A stretch of 8,338 nucleotides of DNA from a virus (IMGVR_UViG_2654587792_000032:1-8338), one strand, 5' to 3'. Positions 1 through 8,338 are shown, counted from the first letter of the stretch. Program-made: numbers and translations. Notes: a model not told the origin generated them from the sequence alone.

Positions 1-486
1 CACCTTTAGCCAATGCTCAATGCGTCTTTCACAGGTTCTTAAACTCCATTCCGGATGTGCATCATTCAGCAGTTCAGCCATTTTGCGCTTAGTCATCCCC
101 CGCCCCACATAACGCTGACTCAGAACATTGAGCAGCCCGGGATAACCTGCCAGTACTTCACCAATAACCCTGTCGATTATTAACGCCTCTGAATCGGTAC
201 AATGTGCCAGCCAGCTTTTTTGATTGCCGTTGATCATATCCCGCAAAAAAGCCTCAAGTTCAGGTTTGTCCAGACCCGCTTTTTTCATCCTCCGGAGCGC
301 CTCGTTAATTGCCGTTTTTGTCAGCTTTTTAGAGGTCAGTAATTGGTTGAACATATTTCCCGTCTTACCGTCGCCAATATACGACCAACGCCCCCACATA
401 CGCAGTTTCCCCTGGATCCAGACACTTTCCAGCGTTTTCAGGCGTAAATGCTCACCGCTTTTGCCTGTAATTTCCGGGTATATCAT
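1..486 (-). CDS. Phage late-gene antitermination protein Q family; C-terminal end runs off the window (at least 162 codons present)
   Basis: ATG at 486 (rc of cat 484-486). The frame stays open to position 1 (checked by hand for the last 40 codons: ...SQRYVGRGMTKRKMAELLNDAHPEWSLRTCERRIEHWLKV). The N-terminal LRMWGRWSY and C-terminal RYVGRGMTKRKMAELL segments resemble Q antiterminators of the DLP12/82 type as I recall them. It lies 8 nt downstream of rusA, the canonical nin-region order. Not in the ORF track because it is open-ended; the + strand ORF 224-568 is its shadow. Confidence 0.7.
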   Translation of the reverse strand, partial: MIYPEITGKSGEHLRLKTLESVWIQGKLRMWGRWSYIGDGKTGNMFNQLLTSKKLTKTAINEALRRMKKAGLDKPELEAFLRDMINGNQKSWLAHCTDSEALIIDRVIGEVLAGYPGLLNVLSQRYVGRGMTKRKMAELLNDAHPEWSLRTCERRIEHWLKV

Positions 487-494
487 ATTTATGC

Positions 495-860
495 TCACTC
501 ACTTTCAATTTTGTAAATCTTCACGCCCAGCCGCCCACCAGAAACGAGCTGACCGCGCACAATATTGATTTCATCAAACTGCTCGTCGTCTATAAGTAGT
601 CCGGCATGCGTAAGCGCATCCAGTGGTGCCTTCAGGATATTGTCCAGGTCGCGGCGGCGCTTATCCGGTGGCTCTGCAATAATCTTTATCGCCAGCCTTC
701 CGGACAGGTTTAATTTCAGCCACTGCTGGCGAACAATAAGTGCCACATCCCGGCGATAACGCTCACCGGCTTTTGACACAAAATATGTGCTGCCACGACG
801 TCGCCAGTAGGTGTTCACCGTCGGCGGGTAAGGCAAAACAAATTCTATGCGTTCAGTCAT
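495..860 (-). CDS. rusA: Crossover junction endodeoxyribonuclease RusA (Holliday junction resolvase)
   Basis: 121 aa. The PYPPTVNTYWRRRG segment, the DKRRRDLDNILKAPLDALTHAGLLIDDEQ block and the GGRL motif match the RusA family (catalytic Asp cluster). Stop TGA at 495-497. Confidence 0.9.
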   Translation of the reverse strand: MTERIEFVLPYPPTVNTYWRRRGSTYFVSKAGERYRRDVALIVRQQWLKLNLSGRLAIKIIAEPPDKRRRDLDNILKAPLDALTHAGLLIDDEQFDEINIVRGQLVSGGRLGVKIYKIESE

Positions 861-1916
861 TCATGCTTTCCACTTCAGGACACCCGAATTTCTCGCGTGC
901 ATTAAAAAACGAATCAGCAACAACAGCTGGCTGCCGTGTTTTTCTTCAAAATCTTTTACCCCGGCGTGCAGTTCGTTATGACATTTACGGCACAGCGGAA
1001 TAACAAACAAATCATCAGCCTTTGTTCCCATACCTCCCAGGCCATGACCAATGATGTGATGCGGATCATCTGCCTGATTACCGCACGTCATGCATTTCTG
1101 CGTTTTTACCCAGCGCGTGTATACAGGCATCTCTTCCCGTTGTGGTTTCTGGCGCTGGAGATACTGAGCCGGTGACTCCGGATCAACGGCAATGCTGACC
1201 ACCGTCTTTTCCTGTGGCGGGTTTTGCTGGTGGGCGTGAGGCAGCAGCGCAAGATTTTTTGTGCGCTGCTTCAGTATGCTGGTGGCGGTCTGCTCTCCCG
1301 GTACGATGTCGCTTTCGCGGTACACCGAGCGGATTTTTTCCGCACGCAATCCCAGAGAACGACGTAATACTGCCTCCGGCAATACGTCCGCTACCTGATT
1401 GCAGACCGCCCACCAGGATAATTCAGCCAGCGATAACTCCCGCTCCTGTGTACCGTTTATTGCGTGGCGGATGACGTCAATCATCCAGGATGTCAGGTTT
1501 TGTTGAGCAAGTTGCCCGAGTGATTCTGAAGTCTGGTCGCGTAACTGATTATCACAGTGCCAGCACAATACCATTGCGCCGGTACCGTAACGATGTATGA
1601 CGGTTTCACTGTGGTGGTAGTCACCATGAGGCCACTGGCAGGATTTAACATGGCGTAACAGCCAGTCAGACAATGCGCCAGCGCCGCCAGCAGCACGAAT
1701 CACCCGCTCATCGCTGAAAAATGGCAGTAATGATTTATCTTCCGCGAGCGGCTGGCGCACGGCAGGAACAGTTCCTGACGGCAGACCGCGCATGCTTTTC
1801 GGTTCCGGCTCCACCAGCACCCGGGGATTATGAAATACCTGCATGGATTCACGGCCCGGCTTAAGGACCACCAGCCCGAGTTCCGGTACCAGAACAGGTC
1901 GAAGTAATACCCGCAC
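861..1916 (-). CDS. ydfU: DUF968 (YdfU-family) lambdoid prophage protein with C-terminal Cys/His HNH-like motif
   Basis: 351 aa with GTG start at 1916. An SD-like GGAGG (rc of 1921-1925) sits inside the 3' end of the upstream ORF. The C-terminus CMTCGNQADDPHHIIGHGLGG...CRKCHNELH is a zinc-finger/HNH-like signature typical of DUF968 proteins. Its stop TGA (861-863) abuts the rusA ATG (858-860), implying translational coupling. Confidence 0.8.
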   Translation of the reverse strand: MRVLLRPVLVPELGLVVLKPGRESMQVFHNPRVLVEPEPKSMRGLPSGTVPAVRQPLAEDKSLLPFFSDERVIRAAGGAGALSDWLLRHVKSCQWPHGDYHHSETVIHRYGTGAMVLCWHCDNQLRDQTSESLGQLAQQNLTSWMIDVIRHAINGTQERELSLAELSWWAVCNQVADVLPEAVLRRSLGLRAEKIRSVYRESDIVPGEQTATSILKQRTKNLALLPHAHQQNPPQEKTVVSIAVDPESPAQYLQRQKPQREEMPVYTRWVKTQKCMTCGNQADDPHHIIGHGLGGMGTKADDLFVIPLCRKCHNELHAGVKDFEEKHGSQLLLLIRFLMHARNSGVLKWKA

Positions 1917-1917
1917 G

Positions 1918-2196
1918 TTACCTCCAGATACGCTGCTGGAATGTGCGGGACGGACGCGGTGGGCGTTCAGAGTAAGGCAGTCTGACTGAGATTATCCAGT
2001 GTCGGAAGTCGAAGCTGAGGTCTTTCTGAAACTCGTAACCACGTCTGCGGTAGTTCTGAATTAGCCACTCTGCCTGCTCTTCAGTACATGGATCATGCTG
2101 GAACCAGTCAGATTTGAATGCATGAGAACGCCGCCCGTGCCTGCTGGCAAAGACGGCTGAATTATCAGAATTGTGTTGTCTGGAATTTTGCGCCAT
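1918..2196 (-). CDS. Hypothetical small phage protein (92 aa), nin-region position
   Basis: ATG at 2196 preceded by GGAGA with 6-nt spacing. Stop TAA at 1918-1920 lies 1 nt from the GTG of the DUF968 gene. No family recognised from the sequence; it may correspond to the small ORF found next to ydfU in Qin-like prophages. Confidence 0.5.
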   Translation of the reverse strand: MAQNSRQHNSDNSAVFASRHGRRSHAFKSDWFQHDPCTEEQAEWLIQNYRRRGYEFQKDLSFDFRHWIISVRLPYSERPPRPSRTFQQRIWR

Positions 2197-2262
2197 CGGC
2201 TTTCTCCGGTGGCACAGTGTTACTCAACAGGGGTTCAGCCCTGCGCTGAATTGTAGATGAAT

Positions 2263-2571
2263 TCACTCATCTTCAAAAGCAGAAAAACCAGCCTTAATCC
2301 CAGCTTCTTTCAGAGACGGCAACGATGTGACAAATTCATTTGCACGCAAAATAAAACCATCCGTCACAAGCCCATCCACCAAATGAATTAACGCAGCTCC
2401 ACTCTTCCTTTGTTGAGACTGTAAACATTTAATACGGCAGTGGCTGACAATAGCGCCATTCTCAACGCGCACAGTATAGAGGCCATCCTCACTAAAAATT
2501 TCACGTAATTCTTCGATTTTCATCAACAGAATCCTTCCAGATAAATAGCACTCCCCCTGTTCGGGGTCCAT
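2263..2571 (-). CDS. Hypothetical small protein (102 aa from ATG 2571; 86 aa if the internal ATG at 2523 is used)
   Basis: Open frame with two candidate starts: ATG 2571 (purine-rich AGGGAGAAGAGGG upstream) or ATG 2523 (GGAAGGA about 8 nt upstream). No recognisable domain. It lies between the cassette terminator and the backbone ORFs. Confidence 0.45.
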   Translation of the reverse strand: MDPEQGECYLSGRILLMKIEELREIFSEDGLYTVRVENGAIVSHCRIKCLQSQQRKSGAALIHLVDGLVTDGFILRANEFVTSLPSLKEAGIKAGFSAFEDE

Positions 2572-2606
2572 CCCTCTTCTCCCTGCGCGCTACTTAAGTA
2601 TTTTTG

Positions 2607-2636
2607 ATTCTATTCTGGCACCGTCCAAAACTTCAA
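2607..2636 (-). promoter_or_regulatory. Candidate sigma70 promoter for the 2263-2571 ORF
   Basis: On the minus strand: TTGAAG (rc of 2631-2636), an 18-nt spacer, then TAGAAT (rc of 2607-2612). It sits immediately downstream of the 2645-2676 terminator. Sequence match only. Confidence 0.3.
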
Positions 2637-2644
2637 ACACGTTG

Positions 2645-2676
2645 AAAATAAAAACAAAAAACCCGCCGAAGCGGGT
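2645..2676 (-). terminator. Rho-independent terminator ending the 216-aa/368-aa operon
   Basis: Minus-strand RNA reads ACCCGC-UUCG-GCGGGU (perfect 6-bp GC-rich stem with a UUCG tetraloop) followed by UUUUUUGUUUUUAUUUU. It starts 5 nt after the stop of the 2681-3787 CDS. Confidence 0.8.
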
Positions 2677-2680
2677 ATAC

Positions 2681-3787
2681 TCAAACAATCTGGAAAATAT
2701 TTCTTGGATTTGTAATAGGTCTGTTGATGGAGAACAACTCACGAATTAAATCTTGGCTCAAGCCAGTTTTCATAAGAATTCTTAGCCAGGTTGCATCATC
2801 CAGCATTTCAATCGCCTCGGCCAGCATACCGGGTTCTTCAGGGCGCAAAAGTTCATCACCAGGTTCAACTCTCGTATACCCTCTGGAATTAAGATGCATA
2901 TAGCCAGTTCTTGCCTGTTCCTGGGTCAATAAGCCTAATGCGCTGGCTCGATAAATACACATTTTAAGGCTGATTTTCCATCTAAGTTTAAATTCAACCA
3001 GAGCATTCCAGTCGAATTGCTTACCTCGTATTCGTGGAAATTCTTTAATGAAAGATAACCTGGGAACTAATAAGGCGCTCGAAAAGTGATCGGCTTGTGA
3101 TTCCGTAAGTTTATCACCTGTCGTTATGCCCTCATGCATTACTAAATGCCCTAATTCATGACCTAAATCAGAGCGAAATCTACATATGCTTTTTTTAACA
3201 TTGTTCCTGATGATAACAGGCCTGTTATTGTGAACAGTAAAAGCATCAACACGATCATCGACTCCCGTAACATGCGCAACGATTACCCCTAAACTCTCCG
3301 CCAATTTAACCATTGATGATATAGGGCCAAGACCTAAATTCCAGGCACGGCGACAATCTTCTGCCACTCGCTCAATATCATTCGGAGTAAGTAATTCAGC
3401 CCCTGGGTGCTCCGGTATGTTAACGTCAGGAAATTCGATTTCACCTTCAACAGCAGAAATTATAATATTAAGAATCTCAGCCCTGGCCAATACACTATTA
3501 GTCAGCGTTTGAGTCCTGGACTTCTTACTCCGAAAATGGCAGACATCACTTTCCAGAGCGTATTTTCGTTCAGTAAAAAGAAAACTGGACTTAATCATAA
3601 GCGCTGAAGATATTAACTCAAGACATTGCTCCGATGGCCTGCACCCCTTCTCCAGTTTGCTAACGAATTGCTTTGTCTTGCCAATTTTTTCGGCTAACTC
3701 TTCACAAGAAAGCCCAACAGCCATTCTCGCTAGTTTGAGCTTATCACCCCGATACTCAGTGAAGTTATTCACCTGATGTTCCATCAC
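2681..3787 (-). CDS. XRE-family HTH DNA-binding domain fused to an ImmA/IrrE-type (M78, COG2856-like) zinc metallopeptidase domain
   Basis: 368 aa. The N-terminal KLKLARMAVGLSCEELAEKIGKTKQFVSKLEKG is a typical HTH_3/XRE helix-turn-helix. The HEXXH zinc motif HELGH falls at residues 210-214 (nt 3146-3160, verified by reverse-complement), followed by ESQADHF as a plausible third-ligand region. The start is GTG 3787 or ATG 3784. It overlaps the upstream 216-aa gene by about 20 nt. Confidence 0.85.
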   Translation of the reverse strand: MMEHQVNNFTEYRGDKLKLARMAVGLSCEELAEKIGKTKQFVSKLEKGCRPSEQCLELISSALMIKSSFLFTERKYALESDVCHFRSKKSRTQTLTNSVLARAEILNIIISAVEGEIEFPDVNIPEHPGAELLTPNDIERVAEDCRRAWNLGLGPISSMVKLAESLGVIVAHVTGVDDRVDAFTVHNNRPVIIRNNVKKSICRFRSDLGHELGHLVMHEGITTGDKLTESQADHFSSALLVPRLSFIKEFPRIRGKQFDWNALVEFKLRWKISLKMCIYRASALGLLTQEQARTGYMHLNSRGYTRVEPGDELLRPEEPGMLAEAIEMLDDATWLRILMKTGLSQDLIRELFSINRPITNPRNIFQIV

Positions 3788-4415
3788 TGCTCACATCCAA
3801 ATCTTTATCCTTCGTACGCCGACGAAGAGGCACCTTATTAATCTCCGCTTCGTCAGGGAGTGTGTTATAATCAAGAGGCATAAGCGGCATCGATGCTGTA
3901 GATTGATGAGAAACTATACTAATCTGAGCACCATAAGTATTAAATCCAACAAGAGCCACCTCCCAACGAGGCAGTGTGGACTCTAATTCACCATCGCCCT
4001 CTTCGGATAAAAAAGGCTCAGCTATGACTCGCCATGTAATATCTTGCTCAGCCTCAACATCACCAAACAATGAGAGTTGCTCATACTCTACTTTATTTCG
4101 ACGCAGACGATGTTTCTTTTTGGGGTTATTAATGCAATCTTTGGTAAATTGTAGCGGAACTTTATTTAAAGCAACTACATAGTCCAACCCCTTGGAAATC
4201 ATCTCAAGGCCAGGAATTGCATCTTCATTTTGAATAAGATGATTTCTGACCCAATCATAAGCCCTTACACCTTCAGACCAGTTGCTGTCTAATGCGTGCT
4301 TATGATAGTACAGCTGCTCAAGTACGTTAGCGATCTCCGCCAACAAGTGGCGAACATAGTTTTCAGCAAGATAAGGTTGAAATTCCCAACAAGGAGCTAA
4401 CTGATTTTCATTCAT
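3765..4415 (-). CDS. Hypothetical protein (216 aa), first gene of a two-gene operon with the HTH-peptidase
   Basis: A single upstream ATG at 4415. The long open frame has an acidic C-terminal tail (EEGDGELE...DEAEI...DKDLDVSSDGTSGE) and a basic patch KKKHRLRRNK. No family recognised. Stop TAA at 3765-3767 lies inside the start region of the downstream gene. Confidence 0.6.
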   Translation of the reverse strand: MNENQLAPCWEFQPYLAENYVRHLLAEIANVLEQLYYHKHALDSNWSEGVRAYDWVRNHLIQNEDAIPGLEMISKGLDYVVALNKVPLQFTKDCINNPKKKHRLRRNKVEYEQLSLFGDVEAEQDITWRVIAEPFLSEEGDGELESTLPRWEVALVGFNTYGAQISIVSHQSTASMPLMPLDYNTLPDEAEINKVPLRRRTKDKDLDVSSDGTSGE

Positions 4416-4450
4416 TTCAAGTTTCGCTTTTTTTAGAATTCGTAAACCAC

Positions 4451-4479
4451 ATATTTTCGCATTTTTCTATTTTTGTCAA
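4451..4479 (-). promoter_or_regulatory. Candidate sigma70 promoter for the 216-aa/HTH-peptidase operon
   Basis: On the minus strand: perfect -35 TTGACA (rc of 4474-4479), a 17-nt spacer, then an A/T-rich -10 AAATAT (rc of 4451-4456). It sits about 35 nt upstream of ATG 4415 and directly downstream of the hok terminator. No strong SD before the ATG. Confidence 0.35.
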
Positions 4480-4487
4480 CCAGACTA

Positions 4488-4512
4488 ATGCAAAAACCCG
4501 CCGAAGCGGGTT
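4488..4512 (-). terminator. Rho-independent terminator at the 3' end of the hok mRNA
   Basis: Minus-strand RNA reads AACCCGC-UUCG-GCGGGUU followed by UUUUUG. The 20-nt core AAAAACCCGCCGAAGCGGGT is identical to the terminator at 2656-2676. Confidence 0.7.
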
Positions 4513-4580
4513 AAGTGCGGGTGCGTTGAGGATGCCTGGCACATCAGAGGTGGCGGGAGATTACTCCCCCGCCGGGTCTC

Positions 4581-4736
4581 TTACTCCTCAGGTTCGTAAG
4601 CTGTGAAGACAGCGACCTCCGTCTGGCCGGTTCGGATTCGTACCTCGCAGAGGTCTTTCCTCGTTACCAGTGCCGTCACTATGACGGTTAAACAGATGAC
4701 GATCAGGGCGATTAACATCGCCTTTTGCTGCTTCAT
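4581..4736 (-). CDS. hokD: Hok/Gef-family type I toxin (51 aa small membrane toxin)
   Basis: Translation MKQQKAMLIALIVICLTVIVTALVTRKDLCEVRIRTGQTEVAVFTAYEPEE shows the hallmark Hok hydrophobic helix and the conserved C-E-V/L and Y-E motifs. As far as I recall it matches HokD/RelF of the Qin prophage. The in-frame upstream extension (ORF track 4581-4793, starting MLYTRR...) marks a mok-like upstream reading frame. Confidence 0.85.
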   Translation of the reverse strand: MKQQKAMLIALIVICLTVIVTALVTRKDLCEVRIRTGQTEVAVFTAYEPEE

Positions 4737-4905
4737 AGCCTGCTTCTCCTTGCCTTTCGGCACGTAAGAGGCTAACCTACGTGTGTAGAGCATAGATATG
4801 GCCTCAGATTAATGTTAAGCGTCTTGCCGGACGCGTAATGTTAACTGGGGCTTTTCTCTATCTGCCTTTGGTGTTGATGCCCGAGGCAGATAGCCTCAAG
4901 CACCC
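4737..4905 (-). promoter_or_regulatory. hok mRNA 5' leader with mok-like start region and fold-back (tac/ucb-type) elements
   Basis: The minus-strand leader GCUUGAGGCUAUCUGCCUC...GGCAGAUAG contains a 9-bp inverted repeat (plus 4858-4866 pairing with 4885-4893). The segment UAGCCUCUUACGUGCCGAAAGGCAAGGAGAAGCAGGCUAUG parallels the plasmid R1 hok leader as I recall it. Confidence 0.5.
4786..4866 (+). ncRNA. sok: Sok-like antisense RNA (approximate ends)
   Basis: On the plus strand, opposite the hok leader: candidate promoter -35 TTGCCT (4750-4755), a 17-nt spacer, then -10 TAACCT (4773-4778). This mirrors the R1 sok promoter arrangement from memory. The transcript would be complementary to the mok start region and extend into the 4858-4893 inverted repeat. 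Ends are inferred, not observed. Confidence 0.4.
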
Positions 4906-4911
4906 GCAGCA

Positions 4912-4940
4912 ATTCTACTTAACTACCGTTACCTCGCCAA
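4912..4940 (-). promoter_or_regulatory. Candidate sigma70 promoter of the hok mRNA
   Basis: On the minus strand: -35 TTGGCG (rc of 4935-4940), a 17-nt spacer, then -10 TAGAAT (rc of 4912-4917). The predicted start falls near GGGTGCTTGAGG, consistent with the 5' end of hok-family mRNAs. Confidence 0.5.
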
Positions 4941-5411
4941 TATGAAATCAATCAGAAAGGTGATCCATAAGAACAACAGCAAGACAATAAATTGCCATTA
5001 CAGCAGCAATAGCCAGCGCACATTTGAGAACCAGCACCACAACCTCCTGTATTGGACGTACACCAGTCCTGATAAATATGAGGCTGTCTCGTCAGTGATT
5101 CAATACAACTACTGGGTATAGTTTCTATGATTTTGTTCTGTGGAAATGGAAAACAGCAACCAGTCACCACCAGCACTTCTTTAAACATGCCAAGTCACAC
5201 GCAAGCCAACATTATAGTTCCCTTTGAGCGAGCAGATGAAGCTAGCAAAAATATTGATCACTTAGGATGCATTACTAACGTTGCTATGTGTTAACGAACA
5301 GGGAGTGGGTCATCAGCATAAATATTTATGCAGTAGGTTTCTTTTAGGACTAGATTAATCAAAAACATTTAGATAAAATTATAAAATCAAGAAATTGGTG
5401 GCAATTAATCT

Positions 5412-5441
5412 TTAATTGTGCCAGCTGAATTTCGTTATTAT
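5412..5441 (+). promoter_or_regulatory. Candidate promoter for the membrane-protein/methyltransferase operon
   Basis: -10 TATTAT (5436-5441) lies about 37 nt upstream of ATG 5479. The -35 is weak (TTAATT at 5412-5417, 18-nt spacer). AT-rich context makes this call weak. Confidence 0.25.
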
Positions 5442-5478
5442 AGAAGATTAGCTTTTTTTTGAGTGTTTGGAGAGTAAA

Positions 5479-6174
5479 ATGTTAGAACCACCAAAGAGTT
5501 ATAATGAAATGTTGCCTATGCTCCATAAGGCGACTTTTATTACTACATTTATATTTTACCTATCATTAGTCATTTATGGCTACATGCCATTGGTTGGCAT
5601 TAATGCCAAGTATATCCCCCCCGTTAAAGACTACGAGGAATTTATTAAATGGATATTAACCTTTGGCATACTACCAATTGCATCTTCAGTTTTTTGGTCA
5701 GTAATTAGTGGAGCTTTAGATCTACATAATAATGTAGCAAAAATTATTGGAATAAGGAAGATGTGGGATAGTCATTTAATTATTAAACCATTAGCAAAAA
5801 TTGCAGGCGTTACGAGAAAATTAACTACTGATGAATCTCACAAGGTAATGAGTAAACTGTATTACCCAGAAGTTAAAGAGTTAAAAGACAAACATTACGT
5901 TGAACTTTTCTGGAACAAAGTTTATTACTTTTGGGTTTTCTTTGAACATACAGTAATCGCATTTGTTACTATTTTAATAATAAGTATCGCCAAATTAACA
6001 AATATATTCTCTGTTACTGGCTCTTTAATTAATCTTTGGTTGTGGATTATTTCTCTTGTCGCATTTGACTTCCTTATTTTCATAGCATCAGTTAAACCAA
6101 GAACAGAAAGCCAAGTAAGACAAATACCTGATAGCAAAATAAAAGAATTCTTTAACAATAACAATATTTTTTAA
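5479..6174 (+). CDS. Predicted integral membrane protein with four hydrophobic helices (about 232 aa), uncharacterised
   Basis: ATG 5479 follows an SD-like TGGAGA (5468-5473); the ORF track starts at an upstream in-frame TTG at 5467. Hydrophobic helices lie roughly at residues 21-40, 57-81, 151-175 and 183-205, with a charged loop in between. Sequence is strongly AT-rich with A/T-ending codons. Stop TAA at 6172-6174. Confidence 0.65.
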   Translation: MLEPPKSYNEMLPMLHKATFITTFIFYLSLVIYGYMPLVGINAKYIPPVKDYEEFIKWILTFGILPIASSVFWSVISGALDLHNNVAKIIGIRKMWDSHLIIKPLAKIAGVTRKLTTDESHKVMSKLYYPEVKELKDKHYVELFWNKVYYFWVFFEHTVIAFVTILIISIAKLTNIFSVTGSLINLWLWIISLVAFDFLIFIASVKPRTESQVRQIPDSKIKEFFNNNNIF

Positions 6175-6186
6175 ACGAGGTTGATT

Positions 6187-6840
6187 TTGAATTACAAAAT
6201 AAATGGAATAAACATACGTTCAGAAAATGCAGCGAAACCGCACACTATGCCATCTAACTATCTCTGTAAACAGATTGAAAGCACTAATAAAAATGGCAAT
6301 GCCCTTGATTTTGGATGTGGAAAACTTAGATATTCAGAACAATTAGCAAATAAATTTGAAACTGTGACATTTTTAGATTCCAGAAGACAACTAGAAAGAG
6401 TGCAAATTATCAGAGGTGTACAAACTACGATTCCAGATTACGTGATAAATAACTATAAGAATGCTAATATTGTTTCTTATGAAAATATAGATAAAATAAC
6501 AAATCATTATGATTTCATACTTTGCGCAAACGTGCTTTCCGCAATTCCATGTGAATCCACAATTCACAAAGTCCTCAGTGCGATTAGAGAATTATTAAAG
6601 AGTGATGGTGAAGCACTGATTGTCAATCAATACAAAAGTTCTTATTTCAAGAGGTACGAGAGCGGTATTAAACATTTGCATGGGTATATATACCAAAACT
6701 CTCGCAATGCTTTCTACTATGGTTTATTAGATGTGGATACTGTAAGTAAAATATGCTCAGATAATAATTTAGAAATAATAAAATCATGGAGCAAAGCAGG
6801 TAGTTCATATGTGGTTGTTGGTAAACATATACATATTTAG
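6187..6840 (+). CDS. Small class-I SAM-dependent methyltransferase-like protein (about 217 aa)
   Basis: Rossmann-fold methyltransferase motifs are present: LDFGCGK (motif I, glycine-rich SAM loop), TFLDS (acidic residue at the end of beta-2), YDFILCANVLSAIP (motif II) and LLKSDGEALIV (motif III). The start is probably TTG 6187 (GAGG at 6177-6180, 6-nt spacing) or TTG 6181. It begins 7-13 nt after the stop of the membrane-protein gene. Confidence 0.6.
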   Translation: MNYKINGINIRSENAAKPHTMPSNYLCKQIESTNKNGNALDFGCGKLRYSEQLANKFETVTFLDSRRQLERVQIIRGVQTTIPDYVINNYKNANIVSYENIDKITNHYDFILCANVLSAIPCESTIHKVLSAIRELLKSDGEALIVNQYKSSYFKRYESGIKHLHGYIYQNSRNAFYYGLLDVDTVSKICSDNNLEIIKSWSKAGSSYVVVGKHIHI

Positions 6841-7154
6841 TTTATTTCAACAAATTATTAGAAAGAGTGATTTGCTTGTTAATTATTAGCTCGGCAGTGC
6901 CGGATCAACATGACCCTGCCACTTAGGCCATTGCCGGTTTACCTACTTTTGTAAGGTTCAGCATGAAGTTTTTATATACTCTTCCTAATATCAATAGTGA
7001 TGCTCGCTTATGTTAGCTGCTTCTTGTACATAGTAGCCTTCTCCGACAGTACTGCAATGAGCGGAGAGTAAAAGTCGATAAACAATAAGGAGGTTCACAA
7101 TAAATATTTCTCGGTGAAACTTTCAAAGCATTCTCTGTTTTGCTAAATCGACAA

Positions 7155-8054
7155 TTATAAATCAACAACATTTAGTGTTATATCAATATTATTTAGCCTT
7201 GCAATCTCTGATGAATCACTTGCTATTTTAGCTTTTAATTTATCAATATTAATCATATCTTCATGGCTTATATAAACCATATCACCTTGGTTAACTTTAG
7301 ATTTGTTCACTATGGCTTGAATAACAGACAAATCATCCATTACACCTCTCATAAATTTCACCATGCTTTGATCTTTGAAGTCAGATATCGATTTTGAACG
7401 TTGCTTACGTTGAATTGTTCCTTTTGTAATTACTTCATTAATTTCTTTTAAACCAGTGAGCATATCAGACAGACTGCCTTCGCAACTCATCCGATGTTTT
7501 ATTGCATTGCGATTAATAATATTGAGTATAATTTCGAGTGAATCTTTATCACTCCATGGATGTAATGATGTATAATCATGATGGCGTCGAATGGCGTCAA
7601 TCATATCCTGGACCATATCTTCATCTGCTTTATCGCAAAGTTCATTCACGAAATAGCTGGGGTCGATTATTTTACAATAACTTGGAGTTAGGTATCTTGA
7701 GGCTTTACAAAAAACAAAAATATATAAAGTAGAGTATTTATCTTTCAGACTCTCTCCTATTTCATTTATTTTCTCAAAAGATTCGATAGTTTTTTTAATT
7801 TTTGCTGGACTTGCATTCGTAGTAACTTGAACTGCTATCATGTTTTTATTATCAGCTAAATCAATGGCGGGAAAATTAACTTTAATCTGATTCATGTTTA
7901 CCAGTTCACCCATTTTCAGCGCGCGAAACATAAAGATGGTCAATGACTCAATTATTCTTTCCATGTCATGAAAGCCTGCCTGTTTGCGTTGCGCGATATA
8001 AAGCTGGAGTAGTGCAATATCACTCTGTAAGTTTCTAATAAGTGGATCAATCAT
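7155..8054 (-). CDS. Hypothetical protein (299 aa), AT-rich orphan, convergent to the methyltransferase operon
   Basis: ATG 8054 is preceded by AAGGA with 9-nt spacing. A continuous 900-nt open frame in AT-rich DNA, with a Lys/Asp/Ile/Asn-rich composition. No family confidently recognised. Confidence 0.6.
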   Translation of the reverse strand: MIDPLIRNLQSDIALLQLYIAQRKQAGFHDMERIIESLTIFMFRALKMGELVNMNQIKVNFPAIDLADNKNMIAVQVTTNASPAKIKKTIESFEKINEIGESLKDKYSTLYIFVFCKASRYLTPSYCKIIDPSYFVNELCDKADEDMVQDMIDAIRRHHDYTSLHPWSDKDSLEIILNIINRNAIKHRMSCEGSLSDMLTGLKEINEVITKGTIQRKQRSKSISDFKDQSMVKFMRGVMDDLSVIQAIVNKSKVNQGDMVYISHEDMINIDKLKAKIASDSSEIARLNNIDITLNVVDL

Positions 8055-8338
8055 AGCTAATAATCCTTTTCAATGAAGCTGGAGGTGTGTTTAACTATTA
8101 GTTAAATTTCTATTTTTATAGAAACAAGCTTTACAACTTCATCAAAGTTTCTCAAATCCTAATCCACTTTGCAAATCCACTAACCATGCTGAATGCTTTC
8201 TGTTGTTAAACATATCCGCTGCTGGCACCAAGCAGACAAACACACTAAGGAAGGTGCGAATAAGCGGGGAAATACTTCTCGGCTGACTCAGTCATTTCAT
8301 TTCTTCATGTTTGAGCCGATTTTTTCTCCCGTAAATGC

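What the first reader, a model, noticed from the sequence alone, without database searches (positions are those of the whole stretch)
5250..8150. Sharp compositional island: strongly AT-rich about 2.9 kb block embedded in a balanced-GC prophage
By eye the block from about 5250 to about 8150 is far more AT-rich than the flanking prophage sequence (long A/T runs, codons ending in A/T). That is the signature of recently acquired foreign DNA. It occupies the position where the Qin-type prophage of E. coli K-12 carries relBE upstream of hokD, as I recall, suggesting cargo replacement at a prophage hotspot.
Basis: partly seen in the sequence, partly recalled or inferred. Interest (0 to 1): 0.5.

Follow-up and report, generated by a model that had tools for sequence, protein, structure and literature searches.

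The report
AT-rich anti-phage cargo in prophage hotspot
The AT-rich block is real and is swappable cargo in a known variable slot of a Qin-like E. coli prophage: a membrane anti-phage gene (a relative of YmfE/"Kunado") with its partner methyltransferase, joined to an untested stand-alone nuclease gene.

Summary
Observation confirmed. GC falls from 0.47 to 0.33 at base 5246 (likelihood change point, LLR 82 against at most 7.5 in shuffles). That matches the homology junction at 5247-5249. GC3 of the three genes is 0.26-0.28, against 0.53-0.68 in backbone genes.

Comparison with other E. coli prophages sets the cassette at about 5250-8211. It lies between an intact hok/sok locus and the DUF977/replication genes. 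K-12 Qin carries relBE-ydfV-flxA in that slot, and other strains carry AbiH, HAD+NUDIX, hydrolases or hypothetical genes.

The block is a composite of two modules:
- **ymfE-ymfD-like operon (5479-6840).** It is 60% and 68% identical to YmfE and YmfD of prophage e14. A 2026 preprint shows that YmfE ("Kunado") is an H-NS-silenced defence against T5-like phages. The two genes were adjacent in all 15 contexts examined, as far out as Acidobacteriota, and often lay beside Hachiman or Lamassu.
- **A convergent 299-aa SMEK/Mrr-type nuclease gene (7155-8054).** Elsewhere it occurs alone in integrative elements and defence islands.

Both modules are AT-rich in nearly every host, so low GC is a family trait and does not show recent arrival. 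The window ends in an IS5 element (8249-8338).

Overall this is an ordinary kind of feature: defence cargo in a prophage hotspot. The conserved methyltransferase partner and the stand-alone nuclease are the two untested parts.

The parts
4560..4950 (-). Intact hok/sok type I toxin-antitoxin locus (hokD/mok ORF 4581-4793, sok/leader RNA region 4731-4905). It forms the conserved left anchor of the hotspot.
   Evidence: Pfam HOK_GEF 2.9e-23. Rfam sok RF01794 scores 114 bits against a gathering score of 59. The sequence is shared at 93-99% with thousands of E. coli prophages. Similarity to K-12 stops at 4750, where relE is joined.
4951..5249 (.). Conserved, unannotated flank that ends at the left recombination junction of the cassette (5247-5249).
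   Evidence: The UTI89 and A19 prophages match the window at 93% up to 5247 and 5249 and then diverge. Many other genomes end at query positions 672-690, which is window 5231-5249. The compositional change point is at 5246.
5250..8211 (.). The AT-rich variable cassette (2962 bp, GC about 0.33).
   Evidence: Junctions were defined against L004 and L005. The cassette is present at 80% coverage or more in 151 of 5426 complete E. coli genomes, always chromosomal; 146 of the 153 matching records are at least 99% identical. It is absent from 50,697 deposited phage genomes.
5313..5478 (+). Upstream region that travels with the ymfE-like gene; presumed native promoter and leader.
   Evidence: It is conserved at 71-77% upstream of ymfE-like genes in other contexts, including loci that lack the SMEK gene (L029, L030, L036). 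No strong sigma-70 consensus match was found on the + strand.
5479..6174 (+). YmfE/'Kunado'-like inner-membrane protein, 231 aa (235 aa from the TTG at 5467), with four predicted transmembrane helices.
   Evidence: 60% identity to K-12 e14 YmfE over 232 aa, E 1e-108. No Pfam, PADLOC, NCBIfam or PHROG family. Four hydrophobic segments and a 64-residue basic loop. The AF2 model is all-helical, pLDDT 87. e14 YmfE is shown to be anti-phage in bioRxiv 10.64898/2026.09.05.749240.
6181..6840 (+). YmfD-like class I SAM-dependent methyltransferase, 219 aa, in an operon with the ymfE-like gene (6-bp gap).
   Evidence: 68% identity to K-12 YmfD, E 6e-113. Pfam Methyltransf_23, Methyltransf_12 and TehB. 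No DNA-methyltransferase family hit. It lies immediately downstream of a YmfE-like gene in every locus examined.
6841..7154 (.). Convergent intergenic region that contains the seam between the two modules (about 6952-7053).
   Evidence: 6843-6951 is found downstream of ymfD in loci without SMEK (L029, L030, L036). 7054-7108 is found downstream of SMEK in loci without ymfED (L013-L017).
7155..8054 (-). Stand-alone SMEK-domain protein, 299 aa: an N-terminal Mrr/SMEK-type PD-(D/E)xK nuclease domain (about residues 5-140) and a C-terminal helical domain with no known family.
   Evidence: Pfam SMEK_N 81.8 bits (cut-off 27). NCBIfam NF033859 105 bits (cut-off 30). A profile of the family matches the 'Mrr domain from Kordia jejudonensis Mrr-APAZ pAgo' (PDB 26bh), E 1.2e-13, over residues 20-139. 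E36, D65, Q76, T78 and K85 are invariant in 39 homologues. AF2 pLDDT 85.6. The C-terminal part has no family.
8055..8248 (-). Upstream region of the SMEK gene. The right junction of the cassette is at 8211/8212, followed by 36 bp of conserved prophage flank.
   Evidence: Homology to UTI89 and A19 resumes at 8212. 8126-8238 is also conserved upstream of SMEK genes that stand alone in Enterobacter.
8249..8338 (+). Terminal 90 bases of an IS5 element, inserted after a CTAA target. It is not part of the cassette.
   Evidence: Matches the IS5 end in L002 at 95%. The sequence starts GGAAGGTGCGAATAAG. The uninterrupted locus L001 continues with different sequence after ...CACACTAA. This accounts for the thousands of multi-copy matches.

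Best explanation
The block is a composite anti-phage cargo cassette in the hypervariable slot between hok/sok and the replication genes of a Qin-like lambdoid prophage. Cassettes are probably exchanged between prophages by homologous recombination through the conserved flanks.

Module 1 is a ymfE-ymfD-like operon. By homology to e14 YmfE ('Kunado'), the four-helix inner-membrane protein would block a post-adsorption step, probably genome entry, of T5-like phages. The cytoplasmic SAM-dependent methyltransferase is its obligate genomic partner. It is inferred to modify or regulate YmfE, or a phage or host component that YmfE acts on.

Module 2 is an independent, convergently transcribed gene for a 299-aa protein. 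Its N-terminal SMEK/Mrr-type nuclease is the same effector domain that short-Argonaute (SPARDA) and short-Lamassu systems use. Here it is fused to a private helical domain. That domain is inferred to hold the nuclease off until infection is sensed.

The low GC content is a stable trait of both gene families. It is likely to place the cassette under H-NS silencing, as reported for the e14 lit/ymfE locus.

Shown here: composition, junctions, homologies, gene linkage, and defence-island context. Shown elsewhere for the e14 homologue only: anti-phage activity and H-NS control. Inferred: activity of this copy, the role of YmfD, and the activity and trigger of the nuclease.
For: - Composition and junctions.
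- Hotspot with alternative cargo.
- YmfE and YmfD homology.
- Kunado activity and H-NS silencing of e14 ymfE: bioRxiv 10.64898/2026.09.05.749240.
- The ymfE-like and ymfD-like genes are adjacent in all 15 independent contexts, whether the search started from YmfE or from YmfD. These include Pseudomonas (35-39% identity), Saccharophagus, Microbulbifer and Acidobacteriota.
- Distant pairs lie directly next to Hachiman (L039) and Lamassu (L044), and near Lamassu components LmuA/LmuC (L040), a C5 DNA methylase (L043), a retron-type RT (L025) and lit (e14).
- One YmfE-like domain is fused to a TIR domain.
- SMEK domain membership and match to the solved Kordia domain. SMEK is described as a nuclease effector in PMC10810196, PMC12205087 and PMC12663957.
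- The 299-aa SMEK family occurs without ymfED next to integrases, SymE, Abi_alpha, AbiGi, HEPN-like+SLATT genes and a P4-like satellite.
- The seam between modules is in the intergenic region.
- The window also carries RosmerTA and hok/sok.
Against: - No experiment exists on this copy. It is only 60% identical to the tested YmfE.
- The preprint is not peer reviewed. It found ymfE and lit as the only hits in its e14 deletion screen and does not mention ymfD, so YmfD may be dispensable for the T5 phenotype.
- Neither YmfE/YmfD nor the 299-aa SMEK protein matches any full PADLOC v2 system model.
- Structural searches gave no specific match for YmfE. For the nuclease domain they gave only weak, non-significant restriction-enzyme-like matches.
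- The putative catalytic motif is D...QxT with a downstream K, not the canonical (D/E)xK, so activity is not assured.
- The H-NS high-affinity motif is not enriched (6 matches against 4.0 +/- 1.9 expected).
- Several copies of the cassette are disrupted by IS elements or frameshifts. This may mean the cassette is costly or dispensable.
Confidence: 0.7

Rival explanations
1. The three genes form one integrated system. For example, a restriction-modification-like unit in which the YmfD-like methyltransferase protects self DNA from the SMEK nuclease, with YmfE as an accessory.
For: The convergent methyltransferase/nuclease layout resembles many R-M systems. The trio is kept with the same architecture in three diverged allele groups: SMEK protein 99-100%, 88-89% and 83% identical to the window copy, and cassette DNA 83.5% identical in E. 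coli A42. These are in different lambdoid prophages.
Against: - YmfD hits only small-molecule or generic class I methyltransferase families, and no DNA methyltransferase family.
- YmfED occurs without SMEK in e14, P2-like prophages, Cronobacter, E. hormaechei, Pseudomonas and others.
- SMEK-299 occurs without ymfED in at least 8 contexts.
- The intergenic region shows a seam where the two modules were joined.
- From general knowledge: K-12, which carries e14 ymfD, has no unassigned DNA methylation motif.
Confidence: 0.08
2. The block is simply recently imported foreign DNA. On this view its AT-richness reflects an AT-rich donor and too little time to ameliorate, with no particular function implied.
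For: There is a sharp compositional step at the exact recombination junction. The cassette is found in only 2.8% of E. coli genomes and is at least 99% identical in most carriers.
Against: - The families are AT-rich relative to their hosts in many genera, and in the old e14 element.
- Diverged alleles (83-89%) of the same cassette sit in the same kind of slot.
- All three ORFs are intact and strongly conserved at the protein level across Proteobacteria.
- A close homologue has a demonstrated function.
Confidence: 0.1
3. ymfE-ymfD is a TehA/TehB-like resistance or lysogenic-conversion pair, not a phage defence. On this view a membrane protein works with a small-molecule methyltransferase that detoxifies or modifies a compound or an envelope component.
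For: The gene order (membrane protein, then methyltransferase) mirrors tehAB. YmfD passes the Pfam TehB threshold (25.8 bits against 20.4) and hits the NCBIfam TehB models weakly.
Against: - Generic methyltransferase families score higher than TehB, and the NCBIfam TehB scores are far below their cut-offs.
- YmfE has four helices and no similarity to TehA.
- The pair repeatedly sits in defence islands and prophage cargo slots.
- e14 YmfE gives phage resistance.
Confidence: 0.07

Closest known systems
YmfE ('Kunado') and YmfD of the E. coli K-12 cryptic prophage e14
   Same: Same two-gene operon (membrane protein, then class I SAM methyltransferase). 60% and 68% amino-acid identity over the full length. 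Same low GC (0.33). Both are prophage cargo that lies next to another defence gene: lit in e14, the SMEK gene here.
   Different: A different prophage and a different slot: e14 has the pair at its icd/att end, this window has it between hok/sok and the replication genes. The neighbour differs. This copy is untested. The preprint treats YmfE as a single-gene system, whereas the data here show an invariant YmfD partner.
SMEK/Mrr nuclease effector domain of short-Argonaute SPARDA partners (Kordia jejudonensis SMEK/Mrr-APAZ) and of short-Lamassu LmuA
   Same: Homologous N-terminal domain (Pfam PF21941; profile match to PDB 26bh, E 1.2e-13). The E, D, Q-x-T/S and K positions are conserved.
   Different: There is no APAZ domain, no Argonaute gene and no LmuB or LmuC nearby. 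The C-terminal 160 residues are a helical domain with no known family. It is a stand-alone gene with no conserved partner.
Prophage and satellite defence hotspots (P2/P4 hotspots of Rousset et al. 2022, PMC9122126)
   Same: A fixed slot bounded by conserved phage genes that holds different small cargo systems in different strains, many of them anti-phage. 'Enzyme plus transmembrane protein' pairs such as HAD hydrolase + TM were validated there.
   Different: This is a lambdoid (Qin-like) slot between hokD and DUF977, not the P2 or P4 slots described there. The ymfED pair is also found after ogr at the end of P2-like prophages, which is not the slot that paper describes.
relBE-hokD region of K-12 Qin
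   Same: Same prophage family and same position relative to hokD and dicC/dicA.
   Different: The cargo is entirely different. K-12 lost the sok/mok leader (similarity ends at 4750) and the replication genes. The window has an intact hok/sok and an extra RosmerTA insertion on the other side of hokD.

Membership tests
YmfE/Kunado family | Full-length sequence homology to e14 YmfE | tested here: met
   60% identity over 232 aa, E 1e-108. The K-12 YmfE cluster is recovered in the homologue search.
YmfE/Kunado family | Polytopic inner-membrane protein | tested here: met
   Four hydrophobic segments (20-41, 58-80, 148-170, 181-205). The positive-inside rule places the 64-residue loop and both termini in the cytoplasm. 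The AF2 model is all-helical, pLDDT 87. This is a prediction only.
YmfE/Kunado family | Protection against T5-like phages at a post-adsorption step | not testable with these tools
   Shown only for e14 YmfE, in bioRxiv 10.64898/2026.09.05.749240.
YmfE/Kunado family | AT-rich locus bound and silenced by H-NS | tested here: inconclusive
   The locus has GC 0.31-0.33. The H-NS motif is not enriched. Binding cannot be tested in silico.
SMEK domain proteins (Pfam PF21941 / NCBIfam NF033859) | Match to the family models above their curated thresholds | tested here: met
   81.8 bits against a cut-off of 27, and 105.1 bits against a cut-off of 30.
SMEK domain proteins (Pfam PF21941 / NCBIfam NF033859) | Conserved putative catalytic residues of the PD-(D/E)xK-like core | tested here: met
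   E36, D65, Q76, T78 and K85 are invariant in 39 homologues and align with E, D, Q, S and K of the solved Kordia domain. Nuclease activity itself was not tested.
SPARDA (short pAgo + nuclease-APAZ) | APAZ domain fused to the nuclease, and an adjacent short Argonaute gene | tested here: not met
   The PADLOC match covers only the N-terminal 150 of 463 profile positions. There is no Argonaute in the window or in 26 kb of the intact locus L001.
Short Lamassu (LmuA with SMEK effector) | LmuA C-terminal region plus LmuB (SMC-like) and LmuC genes in the same operon | tested here: not met
   No LmuA, LmuB or LmuC hit for any window protein scanned. The neighbours are ymfD and DUF977.
Type II restriction-modification system | DNA methyltransferase (N6/N4 or C5 motifs) genetically coupled to the endonuclease | tested here: not met
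   YmfD matches only generic or small-molecule class I methyltransferase models. The methyltransferase and the nuclease occur independently of each other in most contexts.
TehAB tellurite-resistance pair | TehB-equivalog methyltransferase and a TehA (SLAC1-like, 10-TM) membrane partner | tested here: not met
   NCBIfam TehB equivalogs score 30-31 bits against cut-offs of 218-303. YmfE has four helices and no TehA similarity.
Prophage defence hotspot | Conserved flanks with different cargo in related elements, including known defence genes | tested here: met
   Eight different cargo sets lie between hokD and DUF977: relBE, AbiH and the other sets listed in the report. The junctions are at 5247-5249 and 8212.

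The most novel reading that the evidence does not exclude
Kunado is not a single-gene system. On this reading YmfE and the YmfD methyltransferase form an ancient, obligate two-component module that has been conserved as an adjacent pair from Enterobacterales to Acidobacteriota. In it, SAM-dependent methylation of YmfE itself, of a phage protein or nucleic acid entering through the membrane, or of a small signal either gates or broadens the membrane protein's anti-phage action. Separately, the 299-aa SMEK protein would be a new single-gene defence nuclease whose private C-terminal helical domain is the infection sensor.
Probability: 0.3. Interest if true: 0.6.

Novelty: new member of a known kind. 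Interest (0 to 1): 0.4.

Why it matters
It gives a worked example of how lambdoid prophages stack and swap defence cargo. This 8-kb window holds hok/sok, RosmerTA, a Kunado-like pair and a SMEK nuclease side by side.

It also shows that strong AT-richness in such slots is a lasting property of the cargo families, probably linked to H-NS control. It does not mark recent arrival.

Two testable leads come out of it:
- The methyltransferase YmfD is an invariant partner of the recently named Kunado protein. Its role is not addressed in the only paper I found on that protein.
- A widespread 299-aa stand-alone SMEK nuclease family is a good candidate for a new single-gene defence system.

Tried and rejected
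- PADLOC, Pfam, NCBIfam and PHROG scans of the YmfE-like protein found nothing.
- The afdb50 fold library was unavailable.
- The C-terminal half of the SMEK protein has no Pfam match even at E up to 10.
- I tested whether the Pseudomonas neighbours of SMEK (a 219-aa protein and a SLATT_5 protein) are distant homologues of YmfD and YmfE. They are not.
- The H-NS consensus motif is not enriched.
- The promoter and terminator consensus scan found fewer promoter-like sites than shuffles gave (11 against 16.5) and nothing decisive.
- No flanking direct or inverted repeats suggest transposition of the cassette.
- The cassette is not in the deposited-phage collection.
- I first read the many multi-copy matches to the window end as DUF977 variation. 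They are IS5.
- I considered calling the Pantoea SMEK locus the P4 psu-int hotspot of Rousset et al. I dropped that, because the gene lies at the primase end instead.
- Literature searches on ymfD and ymfE other than the 2026 preprint gave only strain genotypes and expression tables.
Full report

Yes. A 300-base sliding profile shows GC of 0.41-0.58 up to about 5100 and 0.29-0.37 from 5250 to 8250. The maximum-likelihood single change point in GC content is at base 5246 (0.471 left, 0.329 right). Its log-likelihood gain is 82, against a mean of 2.5 and a maximum of 7.5 in 200 permutations. Third-codon-position GC of the three genes inside the block is 0.26-0.28. It is 0.53-0.68 for RusA, DUF968 and hokD, and 0.35-0.40 for a second, milder island at 2263-4490.

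**2. Where is the window from, and where are the junctions?**

The window matches Qin-like lambdoid prophages of E. coli at 99.9% over bases 1-8248. Gene order in the intact relative L001 is:

- DUF1133, RusA, DUF968 and two small ORFs
- an HTH/ImmA-type protein plus a 216-aa protein
- hokD
- the three AT-rich genes
- DUF977, an O-like replication protein, YdaT, and dicC/dicA

Bases 8249-8338 are the end of an IS5 element. It starts GGAAGGTGCG and is inserted after CTAA. It matches the IS5 in L002, and the uninterrupted locus continues differently.

Against the prophages of UTI89 and A19, shared sequence (93%) runs to 5247/5249 and resumes at 8212. The variable cassette is therefore about 5250-8211. 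K-12 Qin matches only 967-2676 and 4491-4750. K-12 has lost the sok/mok leader, which is intact here (Rfam sok, 114 bits).

**3. The slot is a hotspot.**

Different E. coli strains carry different genes between hokD and DUF977:

- relBE/ydfV/flxA (K-12)
- two hypothetical genes (UTI89)
- an AbiH-family gene plus a 463-aa gene (A19)
- HAD plus NUDIX hydrolases (GN02050)
- QueH plus a methyltransferase fragment (ATCC 11303)
- an alpha/beta hydrolase (FWSEC0003)
- a run of small ORFs (AVS0717)
- the present cassette

. The present cassette is found in 151-153 of 5426 complete E. coli genomes, always on the chromosome. Of the 153 matching records, 146 are at least 99% identical and 7 are 80-95% identical. 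For example, strain A42 carries the same three genes, 83.5% identical, in a different lambdoid prophage between the replication and Q regions. The cassette is absent from the deposited-phage collection.

**4. The block is a composite of two modules.**

*(a) The ymfE-ymfD-like operon.* The first two genes are homologues of ymfE and ymfD of the K-12 cryptic prophage e14. Identity is 60% (E 1e-108) and 68% (E 6e-113).

I started from the membrane protein and, separately, from the methyltransferase. I then scanned every fetched locus with profiles of the three families. The two genes are adjacent, 0-15 bases apart or overlapping, in every locus with room to see both. That covers 15 independent contexts:

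- the window's Qin-like prophage, E. coli A42 and e14
- P2-like prophages of Providencia and Enterobacter asburiae, where the pair follows ogr
- an E. hormaechei lambdoid prophage, where it follows the lambda-P-like gene
- a Cronobacter prophage end
- a mobilisable element
- four Pseudomonas genomes (35-39% identity)
- Saccharophagus, Microbulbifer and Acidobacteriota (27%)

Most of these lack the SMEK gene.

*(b) The 299-aa SMEK protein.* It has 84 homologue clusters of nearly constant length across Proteobacteria. It has no conserved neighbour. It lies next to integrases in Enterobacter islands, SymE in Cupriavidus and Enterobacter, Abi_alpha in Vibrio, a HEPN-like gene plus a SLATT_5 gene in Pseudomonas, AbiGi/ArdC on a Yersinia conjugative element, and the primase end of a P4-like satellite in Pantoea.

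*(c) The seam.* In the 314-base convergent spacer, 6843-6951 travels with ymfD in SMEK-less loci, and 7054-7108 travels with SMEK in ymfED-less loci. The trio is restricted to enterobacterial lambdoid prophages, where the SMEK protein is 99-100%, 88-89% or 83% identical to the window copy.

**5. What do the parts do?**

*YmfE-like protein.* It has four predicted transmembrane helices. A 64-residue basic loop and both termini are predicted to be cytoplasmic. Its AF2 model is confident (pLDDT 87) but matches nothing specific.

The decisive evidence comes from a September 2026 preprint (bioRxiv 10.64898/2026.09.05.749240):

- In hns-deleted K-12, resistance to T5-like phages maps to e14 ymfE.
- Cloned ymfE under its native promoter reproduces that resistance.
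- Adsorption is not blocked, so the authors propose a superinfection-exclusion block of DNA entry. They name the protein Kunado.
- The lit/ymfE locus is a strong H-NS site.

The preprint's text never mentions ymfD.

*YmfD-like protein.* It is a class I SAM-dependent methyltransferase with only generic or small-molecule family matches, and no DNA methyltransferase signature. It has a family-specific invariant N-terminal motif, I-R/K-S-E-N-A-A-K-P.

*Context of the pair.* Distant ymfED pairs sit directly beside Hachiman (HamA/HamB, L039) and Lamassu (LmuA-Cap4/LmuC/LmuB, L044). Others lie near Lamassu components LmuA/LmuC (L040), a C5 DNA methylase (L043) and a retron-type RT-Toprim (L025). One distant YmfE-like domain is fused to a TIR domain. 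This is the classic defence-island signature.

*SMEK protein.* Its N-terminal 140 residues pass the curated thresholds of Pfam PF21941 and NCBIfam NF033859. A profile of the family matches the solved 'Mrr domain' of the Kordia jejudonensis short-Argonaute partner (E 1.2e-13). E36, D65, Q76, T78 and K85 are invariant. SMEK is described as a nuclease effector of SPARDA and of short Lamassu (PMC10810196, PMC12205087, PMC12663957). Here there is no APAZ domain, no Argonaute and no LmuB or LmuC. The C-terminal 160 residues form a helical bundle with no known family.

**6. Most likely mechanism.**

The cassette is defence cargo that a prophage carries for its host. The ymfE-like membrane protein would interfere with a post-adsorption step of incoming phages. 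This is inferred by homology and not shown for this copy. The methyltransferase acts with it in a way not yet known, which I infer from the invariant linkage. The SMEK protein would be an infection-activated nuclease, inferred from its domain and context.

The AT-richness is not evidence of recent arrival. Both families are 10-25 GC points below their flanks in almost every host examined, and e14's copy has the same GC as this one. A more likely reading is that low GC keeps these potentially costly genes under H-NS control, as shown for e14. That could not be tested here, and the H-NS motif count is not informative.

**7. Rivals.**

- *One integrated R-M-like system.* Disfavoured, because the two modules occur independently, the methyltransferase has no DNA methyltransferase features, and the seam is visible.
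- *Functionless, recent foreign DNA.* Disfavoured by protein conservation, diverged alleles in the same kind of slot, and the tested homologue.
- *A TehAB-like resistance pair.* Disfavoured by far sub-threshold TehB equivalog scores, the lack of any TehA similarity, and the genomic context.

**8. Novelty and verdict.**

The kind of feature is well known: AT-rich defence cargo in a prophage hotspot. All three genes are already annotated in RefSeq as hypothetical protein, class I SAM-dependent methyltransferase and SMEK domain-containing protein. One of them belongs to a family whose function was reported weeks before the literature cut-off.

What is new here:

- the exact junctions
- the two-module structure of the block
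- the universal YmfE-YmfD coupling
- the recognition of a stand-alone SMEK nuclease family as recurrent mobile cargo

Interest is moderate.

Noticed in passing
window 2677-4490: A second, milder low-GC island (GC 0.42) encodes a RosmerTA toxin-antitoxin defence pair: RmrA 2681-3787 (PADLOC 6e-105) and RmrT 3765-4415 (5e-25). Relative to K-12 Qin it is a clean insertion between the rem-side sequence and hokD.
   Followed up: partly
window 4560-4950: hokD here keeps its full sok/mok leader (Rfam sok, 114 bits). In K-12 Qin, similarity ends at 4750, where relE is joined, so K-12 has lost that regulatory region.
   Followed up: partly
window 8249-8338: An IS5 end is inserted after CTAA. It lies 195 bp upstream of the SMEK start codon and 36 bp outside the cassette. 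Its position could alter expression or silencing of the SMEK gene.
   Followed up: partly
L002 8596-9790; L057; L084; L094; L071/L085; hits H42, H115, H144: Other copies of the cassette are repeatedly damaged. There is IS5 or another insertion inside ymfE, ISVsa5 or IS3 within the cassette, and a frameshifted SMEK gene. This suggests a cost, or an IS preference for this AT-rich DNA.
   Followed up: no
window 4951-5247: A conserved (93%) but unannotated stretch lies between hok/sok and the junction. It holds a 78-aa Cys/Gly-rich ORF on the minus strand (4952-5188) with no family match. It may be a gene remnant.
   Followed up: no
window 8212-8238: A short segment with a hairpin (CTGCTGGCACCAAGCAG) is shared both with Qin-like prophages that lack the cassette and with Enterobacter loci where SMEK stands alone. 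It may be a recombination or regulatory element. It is unexplained.
   Followed up: no
protein P0371: A 395-aa protein joins a YmfE-like membrane domain (residues 4-204) to a C-terminal TIR domain (Pfam TIR_2, 2e-20). This architecture is typical of immune effectors.
   Followed up: no
L033 2212-2283 (K-12 e14): The annotated small RNA C0293 lies just downstream of ymfD in e14. I did not look for an equivalent in the window's spacer 6841-7154. The Rfam scan found only sok in the window.
   Followed up: no
L034, L035, L036: Short contigs carry this E. coli cassette at 90-100% protein identity but are filed under a 'Candidatus Scatousia' MAG, an uncultured Haemophilus MAG and a Streptomyces assembly. 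These are most likely binning errors or contamination, not real hosts.
   Followed up: no
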